Virus record (IMG/VR): IMGVR_UViG_3300044645_001661
Source of the DNA: a virus
Taxonomy: Duplodnaviria > Caudoviricetes
Strand: one strand, 5' to 3'
Length of the DNA stretch: 64,000 bases
Notes under the pieces: generated by a model
What the model saw: only the letters and a program-made list of their open reading frames with translations
The model's database searches: none
What the model was told of the DNA's origin: nothing
Part shown: piece by piece, positions 16,366 to 44,392 of the stretch
Position numbering within the stretch: position 1 is the stretch's first letter
How the letters are laid out: each line of letters starts with the position of its first letter
Translations under genes and position numbers: made by a program

Positions 16366-17250
16366 ATGAAAGAAATAAATAAAAAAAATCTTTATACCGT
16401 TACTCCAAAAAGATTATTTACCTTTGGGTGTAGTTTTACTAAGTATGCTTTGGCAACATGGGCTAATATACTTGGATTTGAATTAAATAAAACTGTTGGT
16501 TGTGAATTTTATAATTTTGGTAAATGTGCATCTGGTAATGCATATATATCAAATATTATTTCGCAAGCAGATCAGTACTATAATTTTAATTTTGATGATC
16601 TTGTAATTGTTTGTTGGACAAGCATTACAAGAGAAGATAGATGGATAACTAATAAATGGGATTGTCCTGGTAACATATATTCACCAAATACAACATATGA
16701 TAAAATTATTGTTAAAAAAATAGCAGATAATATTCATTTTTTGATGAGAGATTTGTCAAATATAAAACTGGTGGATTCTTTATTAAAACATAAAACACAG
16801 TATCATTTTCTCTCGATAAAAAATCTATGTGATAGTAAATTACATGTTGATGTTAATTCTTTTAATAAATTAAAAAAAAATTATCAAAGTATAATTGATA
16901 AAATATATCCTAGTTATTATGAAGTTTTATGGGAAAATGATCTCAGAATAAAAAATATTAATGATAAACAAATTATACATAAGAATTATAAAGAAGGTCA
17001 TCCATTGCCATTAGAGCATTTATATTATTTGCATAATATATTTGATTATAATTTTTCAAATGATACTAAACTTATTGTGAAAAAAATTAATAATGAGTAT
17101 AAAAATTTAATTTTAGATTTATATTCTAATCAACATGAAGAGTGTCATCCAGCAGATCTTCCTAAAGAAAAACAAAAAAAATTTTATTTAGAATGTGAAA
17201 AGTTTTTTATATATAAGTCCAAAACGTTATCTGATCTAATAATTGTATAA
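16366..17250 (+). CDS. Hypothetical protein, SGNH-like N-terminus
   Basis: RLFTFGCSFT, NFGKCASGN, VCWTSITREDR; C-terminal GHP. Confidence 0.55.
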   Translation: MKEINKKNLYTVTPKRLFTFGCSFTKYALATWANILGFELNKTVGCEFYNFGKCASGNAYISNIISQADQYYNFNFDDLVIVCWTSITREDRWITNKWDCPGNIYSPNTTYDKIIVKKIADNIHFLMRDLSNIKLVDSLLKHKTQYHFLSIKNLCDSKLHVDVNSFNKLKKNYQSIIDKIYPSYYEVLWENDLRIKNINDKQIIHKNYKEGHPLPLEHLYYLHNIFDYNFSNDTKLIVKKINNEYKNLILDLYSNQHEECHPADLPKEKQKKFYLECEKFFIYKSKTLSDLIIV

Positions 17251-17266
17251 TATTTTACAAAAGAAC

Positions 17267-17295
17267 TTGACTATATAAGTCAATGGGTATATAGT
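17267..17295 (+). promoter_or_regulatory. Sigma70-type promoter for the riboswitch-like leader
   Basis: TTGACT (17267-17272), 17 nt, TATAGT (17290-17295); predicted start just before the CGTTC at 17303. Confidence 0.65.
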
Positions 17296-17302
17296 GTGCC
17301 CA

Positions 17303-17353
17303 CGTTCATTCGCTATTTGCGAATAGCGAACGGAAGTAAGCCGACTCGGAACG
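17303..17353 (+). ncRNA. glnA-like (glutamine riboswitch-like) aptamer, copy 1
   Basis: P1 CGTTC/GAACG, 9-bp P2 TTCGCTATT/AATAGCGAA, junction ACGGAAGTAAG resembling the glnA motif. Confidence 0.6.
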
Positions 17354-17356
17354 GAT

Positions 17357-17525
17357 CGTTCATCTATGGAAGCACTCATCCTTACTTGCTTGCAAGCACA
17401 ACTGATTTCCACCCGAGTTTACAAAGCAGAGATGCCGAAACAAACTCGTAACGATCTTATTTGGGAGGTTAAACAAATCTCCCCAAAAGAGTGTAAAGTA
17501 GACGCAAAAGCCGACTGAAGGAACG
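17357..17525 (+). ncRNA. glnA-like aptamer, copy 2, with an ORF inserted in P2
   Basis: 5' CGTTCATCT; 3' AGACGCAAAAGCCGACTGAAGGAACG; shares AAGCCGACT with copy 1. Confidence 0.5.
17366..17518 (+). CDS. 50-aa small protein nested in the riboswitch-like RNA (MEALILTCLQ...DAKAD)
   Basis: Manually translated ATG-TGA ORF, 153 nt; below the ORF-track cutoff. Confidence 0.55.
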   Translation: MEALILTCLQAQLISTRVYKAEMPKQTRNDLIWEVKQISPKECKVDAKAD

Positions 17526-17556
17526 CTCTTTAGCCTCAAAATTAAGGAGAAACCTA

Positions 17557-17724
17557 ATGTCTAAAGTCGTATATCGTGGTGTTGAATATGACACCAATGA
17601 TCGTCCAAATCAAACTTTGAAAAGAGAACCTCATGTAGAAATCTATCGTGGAGCAATGTTCTGGGTAGATGAAAATGGAAACAAATTCTCCATGGAAAAG
17701 GTACAGGGAGGTAAAGCAAAATGA
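17557..17724 (+). CDS. DUF4278-like small protein (MSKVVYRGVEYDT...)
   Basis: Two YRG motifs; strong SD AAGGAGA at 17544-17550. Confidence 0.7.
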   Translation: MSKVVYRGVEYDTNDRPNQTLKREPHVEIYRGAMFWVDENGNKFSMEKVQGGKAK

Positions 17725-17822
17725 ATACTTACTTCGTTCGCTATCTTAAGAAAAAAGCAAAGAAGGAAAAACTTCTCAAAGATGCACAATTAAATATGGC
17801 AAAACAACCACAGATTGCATAA
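17721..17822 (+). CDS. 33-aa basic peptide (MNTYFVRYLKKKAKKEK...)
   Basis: ATGA-coupled to the DUF4278-like gene; ends before the terminator. Confidence 0.5.
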   Translation: MNTYFVRYLKKKAKKEKLLKDAQLNMAKQPQIA

Positions 17823-17827
17823 TTTTT

Positions 17828-17856
17828 AAAGGAGGATTGACATCCTCCTTTTTTTT
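17828..17856 (+). terminator. Intrinsic terminator whose loop carries a -35 box
   Basis: GGAGGAT-TGAC-ATCCTCC followed by T8; TTGACA 17837-17842, 17 nt, TAAAAT 17860-17865. Confidence 0.8.
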
Positions 17857-17886
17857 ATGTAAAATGAAAAAAAGATTTGAATCTTT

Positions 17887-18045
17887 ATGGACAAAGAAAG
17901 AATAAAATTAATCATTAGTAATATGGAATTATTAATTGATTCATTGAAGAAAGAAGTTCTTTTGGAAGATGTAGTTGAAGAACAACAATTTTCTTCATCA
18001 GTGTTTGGTGATTATGATGAAGTATTTGAAGAATATGATGATTGA
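17887..18045 (+). CDS. 52-aa hypothetical protein (MDKERIKLIISNMELLIDSLKKEV...)
   Basis: Manual translation; directly downstream of the promoter at 17837-17865. Confidence 0.55.
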   Translation: MDKERIKLIISNMELLIDSLKKEVLLEDVVEEQQFSSSVFGDYDEVFEEYDD

Positions 18046-43657: not shown

Positions 43658-43728
43658 GCGGGTGTGGTGTAGCGGTAACATACCATCCTTCCAAGTTGTA
43701 GTCACGGGTTCGATTCCCGTCACCCGCT
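43658..43728 (+). tRNA. trnG: tRNA-Gly (UCC)
   Basis: Acceptor GCGGGTG/CACCCGC, loop CTTCCAA, T-arm ACGGG-TTCGATT-CCCGT; CCA not encoded; weak anticodon stem. Confidence 0.88.
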
Positions 43729-44320: not shown

Positions 44321-44392
44321 GCCTTTCTAGCTCAGTGGTAGAGCACTCGCCTTGTAAGCGAGCGGTCATCGGTTCAAGTCCGATGGAAGGCT
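44321..44392 (+). tRNA. trnT: tRNA-Thr (UGU)
   Basis: Acceptor GCCTTTC/GGAAGGC, D-arm GCTC/GAGC, anticodon arm CTCGC-CTTGTAA-GCGAG, T-arm ATCGG-TTCAAGT-CCGAT. Confidence 0.95.

What the first reader, a model, noticed from the sequence alone, without database searches (positions are those of the whole stretch)
17267..17865. Tandem glnA-like riboswitch with a 50-aa ORF nested inside the second aptamer, controlling a DUF4278-like peptide operon
Seen in sequence: a sigma70 promoter ends just before two tandem CGTTCA...ACG(G/C)AA.(T/A)AAGCCGACT...GGAACG units. In the first, P2 is a 9-bp hairpin. In the second, the P2 position holds an entire ATG-TGA ORF (17366-17518), whose last codons (DAKAD-stop) are the conserved aptamer junction GACGCAAAAGCCGACTGA. 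Downstream come a strong SD, a YRG-repeat 55-aa protein, a coupled 33-aa basic peptide and a terminator. Established: glnA-class RNAs bind glutamine, often occur in tandem, and cyanobacterial glutamine riboswitches precede gifB or DUF4278 genes. Inference: a phage nitrogen-status sensor in which ribosomes translating the nested ORF would unfold aptamer 2, coupling translation to ligand sensing. P3 is much shorter than in canonical glnA, so the ligand could differ.
Basis: partly seen in the sequence, partly recalled or inferred. Interest (0 to 1): 0.8.

Follow-up and report, generated by a model that had tools for sequence, protein, structure and literature searches.

The report
Gene nested inside interlocked glutamine riboswitch
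A lake cyanophage starts a small operon with a glutamine-sensor RNA made of two cores folded one inside the other, and one stem of it closes around a real 50-codon gene, so sensor folding and translation of that gene must compete on one RNA; I found no published description of this layout.

Summary
Downstream of a sigma70-type promoter, 17301-17528 carries two glutamine-riboswitch (glnA/RF01739-like) cores. The ATG-TGA frame 17366-17518 fills the P2 loop of the second core.

The frame is a real gene:
- 126 of 128 such frames in 157 related viral loci keep the same boundaries.
- dN/dS is 0.15.
- Two Cys are invariant.
- It belongs to PHROG 504.

The stem around it is real RNA structure: 344 of 345 cells are paired, with 3-4 pair types per position.

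Covariation places the P3-like pairs and the long-range "linchpin" pair between the two units (154/154, 153/154 and 157/157 loci), not within them (84/154). The RNA is therefore one nested structure. An outer canonical type-1 core encloses an inner, circularly permuted core, and the two share one central helix.

The linchpin partner C17526 opens an SD-sequestering hairpin in front of a DUF4278/IF17-like YRG gene.

The regulatory logic is inference. I favour a glutamine-set toggle between the nested gene and the YRG gene. Ligand binding was not tested.

This scan had already noted the same layout on at least 10 other genomes. I found no published description.

The parts
17245..17258 (+). NtcA-type box GTA-N8-TAC, upstream of the -35 element
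   Evidence: Read from the sequence. The motif occurs in 111 of 147 distinct upstream regions of related loci, against 9 of 147 after shuffling. It mostly lies 57-62 nt before the first CGTTCA; here the distance is 58 nt. Protein binding was not tested.
17267..17295 (+). sigma70-type promoter TTGACT-17-TATAGT; the predicted start lies about 17300-17302, just before the sensor
   Evidence: Consensus scan, 10 of 12 matches. A similar -35/-10 pair is found in 127 of 147 related loci. The transcription start was not mapped.
17303..17308 (+). 5' strand of the outer P1 (CGUUC) plus the junction A; in the nested reading it pairs with 17521-17525
   Evidence: Invariant in all loci. Which GAACG it pairs with cannot be settled by covariation. 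The assignment follows from the covarying linchpin and central helix.
17309..17330 (+). Outer P2 hairpin: 9 bp and a UGCG loop
   Evidence: Sequence and MFE fold. P2 pairs covary in relatives. The same hairpin sits at the inner P2 in 20 relatives.
17331..17338 (+). Outer junction CGGAAGUA: ligand strand with linchpin G17333, and the AGUA half of the E-loop
   Evidence: G17333 covaries with C17526. Across 157 loci this pair is C:G in 116 and G:C in 41, with no exception. In the ORF-less set it is paired in 43 of 43. AGUA occurs only in unit 1.
17339..17346 (+). 5' strand of the central helix (AGCCGACU); pairs with 17509-17516
   Evidence: The end pairs are standard pairs in 153 of 154 and 154 of 154 loci, with 4 pair types each. 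The cis alternative pairs in only 84 of 154.
17347..17362 (+). Inner core: junction CG, inner P1 hairpin GAACG-GAU-CGUUC (17349-17353 with 17357-17361; loop G17354 is the linchpin partner of C17505), and junction A17362
   Evidence: The strands are invariant. The G17354:C17505 equivalent is paired in 43 of 43 ORF-less loci and in 155 of 157 of all loci. That this hairpin forms, rather than two cis P1 helices, is inferred.
17363..17367 (+). 5' strand of the inner P2 closing stem (UCUAU); contains A and U of the nested start codon
   Evidence: Pairs with 17498-17502. In 69 distinct ORF-bearing relatives, pairs 1-5 are paired in 344 of 345 cells, with 3-4 pair types at pairs 3-5. The stem also appears in the MFE fold.
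17366..17518 (+). Nested gene, 50 codons plus TGA; small 2-Cys helical-hairpin protein (PHROG 504 family)
   Evidence: 94 of 96 inner-unit frames end at the same in-core stop. dN/dS is 0.15 in frame and 0.86 in the +1 frame. C8 and C43 are invariant in 86 proteins. 124 homologues of about 50 aa were found. The window's own match to phrog_504 is weak (E 0.0096); relatives match at up to 8e-13. AF2 gives two helices, pLDDT 86.6.
17498..17502 (+). 3' strand of the inner P2 closing stem (GUAGA); lies inside codons 45-46 of the nested gene
   Evidence: Covaries with 17363-17367. The residue before D-A-K-A-D (W, I, E, K, R or V in relatives) tracks the bases 5' of the start codon.
17503..17508 (+). 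Inner junction CGCAAA, with linchpin C17505
   Evidence: Alignment and pair counts. It has the same CGC as the ligand strand of the solved type-2 riboswitch (PMC6698751).
17509..17516 (+). 3' strand of the central helix (AGCCGACU); U17516 is the first base of the nested stop codon
17517..17526 (+). GAAG half of the E-loop, 3' strand of the outer P1 (GAACG 17521-17525), and linchpin partner C17526
   Evidence: GAAG occurs only in unit 2. C17526 covaries with G17333.
17526..17549 (+). SD-sequestering hairpin: CUCUUUAG (17526-17533) pairs with UUAAGGAG (17542-17549)
   Evidence: MFE folds. It is present in nearly all loci of the window's (G..C) class. Two loci carry the compensated form CGCUU with AAGCG.
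17557..17724 (+). 55-aa YRG-repeat protein, DUF4278/IF17-like
   Evidence: Pfam DUF4278 E 5e-4, 20.8 bits, below the 25.3 cut-off. 60 of 63 orthologues match. phrog_5049 E 3e-9. A YRG protein follows the sensor in 133 of 134 loci.
17721..17822 (+). 33-aa basic helix peptide, start overlapping the previous stop (ATGA)
   Evidence: ORF list. By eye, the same segment is fused to the N- or C-terminus of the YRG protein in relatives, or is a separate gene. It matches no family.
17828..17859 (+). Intrinsic terminator: 10-bp stem and a T run

Best explanation
Region 17301-17556 is the leader of a three-gene mini-operon of a freshwater T4-like cyanophage. It folds, at least in one of its states, into one interlocked double glutamine sensor rather than two beads on a string.

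Outer core. This is a canonical type-1 (glnA) three-way junction.
- P1 pairs 17303-17307 with 17521-17525.
- P2 is the 9-bp hairpin.
- The junction strand is CGGAAGUA, and it faces GAAG as an E-loop.
- The linchpin pair is G17333:C17526.

Central helix and inner core. The P3 of the outer core is an 8-position helix, 17339-17346 with 17509-17516. At its far end it opens into a second, circularly permuted core.
- P1 of this inner core is closed by the 3-nt linker (17349-17361).
- Its linchpin is C17505:G17354.
- Its P2 stem (17363-17367 with 17498-17502) closes around a translated 50-codon gene.

Geometry of the nested gene.
- Its start codon lies in the P2 stem.
- Its stop codon UGA is made of the last base of the central helix plus the first two bases of the E-loop strand.
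- Ribosomes on this gene and the folded sensor therefore exclude each other.

Expression platform. C17526 is also the first base of a hairpin that hides the SD of the DUF4278/IF17-like gene. As proposed for the Synechocystis gifB leader, glutamine binding should pull C17526 into the linchpin pair and free the SD.

Inferred logic.
- At low glutamine the RNA is loose, the nested 2-Cys protein is made, and the YRG gene stays masked.
- At high glutamine the double core locks. The nested AUG is buried and the YRG gene is switched on.

What is shown and what is inferred.
- Shown: the sequence anatomy, the coding status of the nested frame, the covarying helices, and the conservation in more than 150 viral contigs.
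- Inferred: glutamine binding, two binding sites, the choice of P1 partners, and the direction of regulation.
For: - Core identity: RF01739 match at 31.4 bits on unit 1. ORF-less copies of unit 2 score 37-38 bits. An own model built from ORF-less relatives recovers 17301-17528 at 65.2 bits, E 3e-15, as the only hit in the window.
- Nested gene: 126 of 128 nested frames keep their boundaries; dN/dS 0.15 against 0.86 out of frame; two invariant Cys; 124 homologues; PHROG 504. RNAalifold found no consensus structure at all for 20 window-like units, so none in the ORF interior.
- P2 stem around the gene: 344 of 345 cells paired, several pair types per position.
- Nested topology: inter-unit pairs 154/154 and 153/154 against cis 84/154. 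Linchpin of unit 1 with the base after unit 2: C:G in 116 loci and G:C in 41, with no mixed state. Formal counts on 43 ORF-less loci are. 'Short' variants (AGUCG with CGACU) can pair only between units. AGUA occurs only in unit 1 and GAAG only in unit 2.
- Platform: the SD hairpin starts exactly at the linchpin partner, and two loci carry a compensated variant.
- Context: the YRG/DUF4278 gene follows in 133 of 134 loci.
- Literature: DUF4278 is part of the glutamine synthetase inactivating factor IF17, and the type-1 switch turns its translation on (PMC6212724). The linchpin and ligand contacts are described in PMC6698751.
Against: - No ligand-binding, structure-probing or expression data exist for this RNA.
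- Unit 1 of the window is below Rfam's gathering score (31.4 against 35), and there is no RF01704 hit.
- The P1 strands are invariant. Covariation therefore cannot say whether P1 forms outer/inner (nested) or cis with a kissing central helix.
- Covariance models with the nested and the cis structure score the window alike (65.2 against 67.5 bits). The nested model wins only on variant loci, by 4-9 bits.
- The linchpin swap C:G to G:C may be a single evolutionary event, since the G..C class looks like one freshwater/estuarine clade.
- Two positions of the central helix are A.C or C.A mismatches in most loci.
- The nested start codon has no SD.
- Minimum-free-energy folding alone does not predict the long-range P1.
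- The direction of regulation of the nested gene is pure inference.
Confidence: 0.55

Rival explanations
1. Plain tandem. Two independent glnA-type aptamers lie side by side. Each has its own P1, a short cis P3 and its own linchpin, and the second merely has a long P2 loop.
For: Rfam's model aligns each unit on its own. A covariance model with the cis structure scores the window slightly higher than the nested one (67.5 against 65.2 bits). Unit 1 would fold first during transcription. Tandem glnA RNAs are reported in the literature (PMC2864571).
Against: The cis P3 outer pair is a standard pair in only 84 of 154 loci, against 153-154 for the inter-unit pairs. In the window's class both cis linchpins are G.G and C.C mismatches. 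Short variants cannot form a cis P3 at all. Neither unit alone has both halves of the E-loop.
Confidence: 0.08
2. Same central helix, different topology. Both P1 helices form in cis. The two 8-nt segments kiss and the ligand strands are domain-swapped, giving a pseudoknotted dimer-like fold. Alternatively the RNA alternates between this fold, the cis fold and the nested fold, and that exchange is the switch.
For: All P1 strands are identical, so any partner choice is possible. The solved type-2 riboswitch crystallised as a domain-swapped dimer exchanging strands at exactly the linchpin pair (PMC6698751). The covariation is equally compatible with this fold.
Against: It needs a pseudoknot. The nested fold explains every covarying pair with nested helices and restores the canonical order of elements, including the E-loop.
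Confidence: 0.12
3. Passenger gene. The P2 loops are simply tolerant sites where small genes can sit and be exchanged. The sensor works as in ORF-less relatives, and the nested gene is just co-transcribed, with no regulatory coupling selected for.
For: 47 of 157 loci have no nested gene and 18 have two. P2 modules, hairpin or gene, swap between the two positions. Peripheral loops of other structured RNAs tolerate ORFs, for example group I introns (own knowledge).
Against: The start codon is always 3-6 nt after CGUUCA, inside the stem (one outlier). The stop is always inside the core, in the same frame in 91 of 96 inner-unit frames. Three homologous gene families occupy these loops, and no other gene type does. 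Physical exclusion between ribosome and fold is unavoidable.
Confidence: 0.15
4. Positive coupling. Ribosomes finishing the nested gene open the downstream structure or re-initiate, so nested-gene translation turns the YRG gene on and the sensor mainly gates the nested gene.
For: The stop lies 38 nt before the next AUG. The operon is compact, and the second and third genes are coupled by ATGA.
Against: A ribosome stopped at 17516-18 should unwind roughly to 17524-17528. That covers the outer P1 but only one to three of the eight pairs of the SD hairpin (geometry from general knowledge of the ribosome's mRNA channel; not tested). ORF-less relatives keep the same platform.
Confidence: 0.07
5. 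Relic or re-used RNA. The cores no longer bind glutamine. The conserved pieces serve another role, such as a protein binding site, an RNase site or a recombination module.
For: Scores lie at or below Rfam's threshold. The junctions deviate from the consensus.
Against: By sequence comparison, all bases that contact glutamine in the solved type-2 structure (C1, G2, C39, G40 and the G-C of the ligand strand; PMC6698751) are present in both cores when read as nested. Purifying conservation is strong across more than 150 divergent contigs. The sensor is linked to the same gene family as in cyanobacteria.
Confidence: 0.03

Closest known systems
Type-1 glutamine riboswitch (glnA RNA, Rfam RF01739), e.g. 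the Synechocystis gifB (IF17) leader (PMC6212724; structure by Ren et al. 2015 as cited there)
   Same: CGUUC/GAACG P1, P2 hairpin, CGGAAGUA junction, E-loop, long-range G:C linchpin whose C starts an SD-masking helix, and a downstream DUF4278 gene.
   Different: P3 is not a small hairpin. It is a helix that carries a second, circularly permuted core. One or both P2 loops hold protein genes, so P1 spans 220-450 nt. Single units fall at or below Rfam's threshold. Binding has not been tested.
Type-2 glutamine riboswitch (Downstream-peptide motif, RF01704; PMC6698751)
   Same: The inner core has the CGC ligand strand and a C:G linchpin, lacks an E-loop, and serves the same gene family. The crystal form swaps strands at the linchpin.
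   Different: No RF01704 hit in the window; relatives score 24-29 bits against 33. There is no 3' pseudoknot hairpin. The inner P1 is closed by a loop.
Tandem riboswitches, e.g. the glycine riboswitch and the tandem glnA RNAs of Weinberg 2010 (PMC2864571)
   Same: Two ligand-sensing cores in one leader; inter-core contacts are expected to give a sharper response.
   Different: Here the cores are not side by side. They are nested and share a helix, and each binding pocket seems to need strands that Rfam assigns to different units.
ORFs inside sensing leaders: mgtL in the Salmonella mgtA leader (own knowledge) and uORFs in the M. tuberculosis B12 riboswitches (PMC11260477)
   Same: Translation of an ORF inside the leader competes with alternative RNA folds.
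   Different: Those ORFs lie in expression platforms, and for mgtL (own knowledge) it is the act of translation that matters. Here the ORF lies inside the aptamer itself and encodes a conserved protein under purifying selection (dN/dS 0.15).
Group I introns with homing-endonuclease ORFs in peripheral loops, e.g. T4 td/I-TevI (own knowledge)
   Same: A structured RNA whose terminal loop carries a whole protein gene; translation into the core would disrupt folding.
   Different: A ribozyme, not a ligand sensor. The ORF there is a mobility gene; here it is a 50-70-aa 2-Cys protein with no nuclease features.

Membership tests
Glutamine riboswitch type 1 (RF01739) | Covariance-model score at or above the gathering score (35 bits) | tested here: not met
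   Window unit 1 scores 31.4 bits, and there is no hit at gathering. ORF-less relatives with the same 3' half as unit 2 score 38.1 and 37.2 bits.
Glutamine riboswitch type 1 (RF01739) | P1 (CGUUC/GAACG) and a P2 helix supported by covariation | tested here: met
   P1 strands are invariant. P2 pairs covary in the short forms and in the ORF-bearing forms.
Glutamine riboswitch type 1 (RF01739) | E-loop (AGUA facing GAA) next to P3, and the long-range G:C linchpin | tested here: met
   Met only when the structure is read as nested. AGUA is in unit 1 and GAAG in unit 2. G17333:C17526 covaries. In the cis reading both features fail.
Glutamine riboswitch type 1 (RF01739) | Selective binding of L-glutamine | not testable with these tools
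   Needs in-line probing or ITC.
Glutamine riboswitch type 2 (RF01704) | Covariance-model hit and a 3' pseudoknot hairpin | tested here: not met
   No hit in the window at E up to 10. Relatives score 24.6-28.8 bits against 33.
DUF4278 (PF14105; IF17-like) | Pfam score at or above the gathering score (25.3 bits) | tested here: not met
   The window protein scores 20.8 bits, E 5e-4. 60 of 63 orthologues match at E up to 0.01 (best 1.2e-7), and all share the two YRG motifs. This is a family-level relative; the single-sequence score is below the cut-off.
PHROG 504 (cyanophage small protein, function unknown) | Profile match | tested here: inconclusive
   The window protein matches at E 0.0096, 16.6 bits. 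Relatives aligned with it match at 4e-8 to 8e-13, and the 86-sequence alignment has two invariant Cys.
Regulatory leader peptide / uORF | A short ORF whose product is not itself conserved | tested here: not met
   dN/dS 0.15, invariant Cys pair, confident two-helix model, and homologues of 49-66 aa in three related families.

The most novel reading that the evidence does not exclude
The double core is an obligate two-site, interlocked glutamine sensor. Its intercistronic pieces assemble across whole genes, and it works as a translational toggle. From one mRNA the phage makes the nested 2-Cys protein(s) when glutamine is low, and the IF17-like YRG protein, a candidate inhibitor of host glutamine synthetase, when glutamine is high. 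The P2 loops act as exchangeable gene cassettes flanked by the conserved core.
Probability: 0.35. Interest if true: 0.9.

Novelty: new variant of a known kind. Interest (0 to 1): 0.85.

Why it matters
- Riboswitch aptamers are treated as compact non-coding domains. Here a sensor folds around translated genes, so a ribosome and a ligand compete for the same RNA. That is a directly testable new mode of gene control.
- What databases and papers count as 'tandem' phage glutamine riboswitches appears to be one nested structure. This changes how such elements should be modelled and searched. Rfam's threshold misses the window's copy altogether, and a 2017 survey found only two glutamine aptamers in cyanophage genomes (PMC5473149). 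Two capped scans here returned more than 150 viral contigs.
- It links phage infection to host nitrogen status through an IF17-like protein and an unknown 2-Cys protein family. This is relevant to how cyanophages steer nitrogen metabolism in lakes and oceans.

Tried and rejected
- Complex prediction of the nested protein with the YRG protein: no answer (score 0.02). This is not evidence either way.
- Fold searches of the AF2 model: the hits at the top of the viral-library list were mostly cyanophage proteins of unknown function, and there was no informative PDB match. They give no clue to function.
None parsed as a double core, so nothing can be said about host genomes.
- No whole genome is held for the window.
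- Metatranscriptome contigs (four aquatic RNA runs): they cover relatives of 17293-17790 and bridge the sensor, the nested gene and the YRG start. They are contigs of relatives in RNA libraries that may hold DNA, so they do not show transcription, ends or levels.
- Covariance models with cis against nested structure do not discriminate on the window (67.5 against 65.2 bits).
- RNAalifold on 20 window-like ORF units returns no consensus structure. Thermodynamic folding does not predict the long-range P1.
- Glutamine-codon attenuation was considered and dropped. The LQAQ motif is confined to one subfamily.
- A lipoprotein or signal-peptide reading of the N-terminus was considered. Only the 'MTKALLLLAWVPLL' subfamily looks like a signal peptide; the window's protein has only seven residues before the Cys.
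- Ames & Breaker 2011 could not be read. I therefore cannot exclude that it mentions the inter-unit pairing.
Full report
**What is there.** The window is a low-GC T4-like cyanophage from lake water; ThyX and PhoH lie just downstream.
- a promoter TTGACT-17-TATAGT (17267-17295);
- unit 1: CGTTCA, a 9-bp hairpin, and ACGGAAGTAAGCCGACTCGGAACG (17303-17353);
- a 3-nt linker;
- unit 2: CGTTCA (17357) and, 145 nt later, ACGCAAAAGCCGACTGAAGGAACG (17502-17525);
- the frame 17366-17518, which fills the gap between the two halves of unit 2;
- an SD, a 55-aa YRG protein, an ATGA-coupled 33-aa frame, and a terminator.

**Is it a glutamine-riboswitch relative?** At Rfam's gathering scores the window gives only two tRNAs. 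With relaxed thresholds unit 1 matches RF01739 at 31.4 bits (E 8e-5; gathering score 35). Nature supplies one. S-PM2, S-CREM1 and many viral contigs have the same two units with a short hairpin where the ORF sits. Such units, with a 3' half identical to the window's unit 2, reach 38.1 and 37.2 bits. A covariance model built only from 43 ORF-less double units finds 17301-17528 as the single hit in the 64-kb window (65.2 bits, E 3e-15). It places a 131-nt insert in one hairpin loop.

**The nested frame is a gene.**
- Two capped scans of viral contigs gave 157 parsable double units. Of these, 78 carry a long insert in unit 2 only, 14 in unit 1 only, 18 in both, and 47 in neither.
- Of the 128 inserts, 126 are frames with the same boundaries. 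They start at an ATG 3-6 nt after CGTTCA (one outlier). They stop inside or just before the 3' core.
- The other two are open frames that read through that stop to the next one downstream.
- For unit 2, 91 of 96 frames stop at the same T(G/A)A, in the frame GAC-GCA-AA.-...-GAC-TGA.
- In 21 window-like sequences the interior codons give dN/dS 0.15 in frame and 0.86 in the +1 frame. Variability is highest at third positions, and the other two frames average about 4 stops each.
- The proteins are very diverse (mean column identity 34%), but two Cys are invariant (C8 and C43).
- 124 homologues of about 50 aa exist in the large protein collection.
- Relatives match PHROG 504 at up to E 8e-13; the window's own match is weak (E 0.0096).
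- AlphaFold2 with this alignment gives a two-helix hairpin, pLDDT 86.6. Its only similar structures are mostly cyanophage proteins of unknown function.
- The genes nested in unit 1 (61-69 aa; PHROG 6471 and a signal-peptide-like group) are homologous to the unit-2 family (hhalign 96%, E 3e-9). They keep the same Cys-to-Cys spacing of about 36 residues.

**The stem around the gene is RNA structure.** In 69 distinct ORF-bearing unit-2 sequences, the five pairs next to the junction are paired in 344 of 345 cells, with 3-4 pair types at positions 3-5. Examples are UCCCA/UGGGA, UCUA/UAGA, UCCUCA/UGAGGA and UCCUUA/UAAGGA. Shuffling partners among sequences drops the mean helix length from 6.35 to 3.88. 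As a result, the residue before D-A-K-A-D (W, I, E, K, R, V) follows the bases 5' of the start codon rather than any protein logic. RNAalifold returned no consensus structure at all for these units, so it gives no sign of conserved structure in the ORF interior.

**The two units are interlocked, not tandem.** Three observations point the same way.
1. *Linchpin.* In solved glutamine riboswitches a base of the ligand strand (ACG-x) pairs with the base just 3' of P1 (y). This is G:C in type 1 and C:G in type 2 (PMC6212724, PMC6698751).
   - The loci here are either x1 y1 x2 y2 = C G C G (116 loci) or G G C C (39, including the window; 2 more are G A C C). There are no mixed states.
   - In the second class both cis pairs are mismatches. 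In contrast, x1:y2 is paired in 157 of 157 loci and x2:y1 in 155 of 157.
2. *P3 pairs.* The end pairs of the 8-nt segments that Rfam folds into tiny cis hairpins are standard pairs between units in 154/154 and 153/154 loci, with four pair types each. Within units they pair in only 84/154.
   - The formal count on 43 ORF-less sequences agrees. Cis linchpins are paired in 32 of 43 and the cis P3 outer pair is 15 paired against 18 unpaired. The nested linchpins are paired in 43 of 43 each, and the central-helix ends in 42 of 43 and 33 of 33.
   - 'Short' variants (AGUCG in unit 1, CGACU in unit 2) form a perfect 5-bp inter-unit helix and no cis hairpin at all.
3. *E-loop.* AGUA occurs only in unit 1 and GAAG only in unit 2. 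A canonical E-loop therefore exists only across units.

**The nested fold.** All covarying pairs fit one nested fold.
- *Outer core:* P1 (17303-07 with 17521-25), P2 hairpin, CGGAAGUA, central helix (17339-46 with 17509-16), GAAG, and linchpin G17333:C17526.
- *Inner core, circularly permuted:* P1 (17349-53 with 17357-61) closed by the linker, P2 around the gene, CGCAAA, and linchpin C17505:G17354.

**Caveats on the topology.**
- P1 strands are invariant, so a pseudoknotted 'kissing' version with cis P1 helices cannot be excluded.
- The linchpin swap may be one evolutionary event.
- Covariance models with either structure score the window alike (65.2 against 67.5 bits). The nested model is better by 4-9 bits on variant loci, and the cis model by 2-3 bits on the commonest type.

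**Expression platform and context.**
- In the window's class the base after the outer P1, C17526, opens an 8-bp hairpin that buries the SD (17526-33 with 17542-49). Two loci carry a compensated version. This mirrors the model for the gifB leader, where the linchpin C and its neighbours mask the ribosome binding site until glutamine binds (PMC6212724).
- The regulated gene is a YRG-repeat protein in 133 of 134 loci, and DUF4278 is matched by 60 of 63 orthologues. The window's own score (20.8 bits) is below Pfam's cut-off. DUF4278 is part of IF17, the glutamine synthetase inactivating factor (PMC6212724).
- By eye, the 33-aa frame is a helix segment that relatives fuse to either end of the YRG protein.
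- An NtcA-type box (GTA-N8-TAC, 17245-58) lies upstream of the promoter. It is found at the same distance in most relatives: 111 of 147 loci against 9 of 147 after shuffling.

**How it probably works (inference).**
- The nested AUG lies in the inner P2 stem, directly after the inner P1 hairpin.
- The stop UGA is the last base of the central helix plus the first two bases of the E-loop strand.
- A ribosome on the nested gene therefore unfolds the inner core, the central helix and the outer E-loop and P1. Conversely, a locked sensor hides the AUG.
- A ribosome stopped at 17516-18 should reach about 17524-28. That is enough to open the outer P1 but not the SD hairpin.
- I therefore favour a toggle. 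At low glutamine the nested protein is made and the YRG gene stays masked. At high glutamine the sensor locks, the nested gene goes off, and the linchpin frees the SD.
- Rivals are a passenger gene with no selected coupling, positive coupling, and a relic RNA. Their odds are given in the rival list.

**Modularity.** The same 9-bp hairpin sits at the inner P2 in 20 loci and at the outer P2 in 12 loci whose inner P2 holds a gene, including the window. One ORF subfamily occurs in unit 2 of one contig and unit 1 of another (45% identity). Modules in the P2 loops thus appear to be exchanged, probably by recombination between the repeated cores.

**Comparison with what is known.**
- The parts (type-1 and type-2 glutamine cores, a DUF4278 target, an SD-masking helix) are known.
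- I found no description of protein genes inside aptamer loops, nor of the nested double core. The papers I could search were Weinberg 2010, Klähn 2018, Huang 2019, McCown 2017 and the S-CREM1 and Melnitz phage papers. Ames & Breaker 2011 was not readable.
- McCown 2017 found only two glutamine aptamers in cyanophage genomes.
- The S-CREM1 paper lists one 99-nt glnA hit spanning both units. That would be compatible with a model reading across them, but I could not inspect the alignment.
- Earlier follow-ups of this scan reached the same reading on at least 10 other genomes. I derived mine before reading them, and they are not independent evidence.

**Verdict.** It is a new variant of a known riboswitch class. 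Interest is high, with the regulatory logic still to be tested.

Noticed in passing
window 17245-17258: NtcA-type palindrome GTA-N8-TAC, 9 nt upstream of the -35 box. It is conserved at the same distance in most related loci (111 of 147, against 9 of 147 after shuffling). This suggests nitrogen control of transcription on top of the RNA sensor.
   Followed up: partly
window 17721-17822, and loci such as L146:8451-8615, L054:1970-2116: By eye, the 33-aa basic peptide corresponds to a helix segment (N.L..I.KQIEK...L..AQ) that relatives fuse to the N-terminus or the C-terminus of the YRG protein, or keep as a separate gene. This looks like a split and shuffled two-module protein.
   Followed up: partly
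window 17837-17865 and 17887-18045: A near-consensus promoter (TTGACA-17-TAAAAT, 11 of 12) overlaps the terminator hairpin. It precedes a 52-aa acidic ORF; S-SRM01 and S-PM2 have a small gene of similar size at the same relative position.
   Followed up: no
loci L007, L029, L034 and others: In 32 of 157 relatives the outer P2 loop also holds a gene (61-69 aa, PHROG 6471 or a signal-peptide-like group). Its stop is often the UAA of the AGUA-A E-loop strand. Both nested stops therefore fall on the two strands of the same E-loop.
   Followed up: yes
alignment A4, columns 40/97 and 43/94 (window 17341/17514 and 17344/17511): Two positions of the central helix are conserved C.A and A.C mismatches in most loci. 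A few variants have standard pairs there instead. This may be a specific motif rather than noise.
   Followed up: no
marine-class loci, e.g. L007, L009, L052: In the C..G class there is no obvious anti-SD helix. By eye, a short covarying hairpin starts at the base after the outer P1 (GGAU/GUCC, GGG/CCC, GGGU/ACCC). The expression platform seems to differ between the two classes.
   Followed up: partly
window 43658-43728 and 44321-44392; L012:11262-11350: Two tRNA genes in the window, and a PhotoRC-II RNA (64 bits) in a related contig.
   Followed up: no
window 17293-17790: Contigs from four aquatic metatranscriptome runs cover relatives of the predicted transcription unit and nothing of its flanks. 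The flanks are less conserved, so relatives' contigs may simply not map there. One 343-nt contig bridges the first core, a diverged nested gene and the YRG start.
   Followed up: partly
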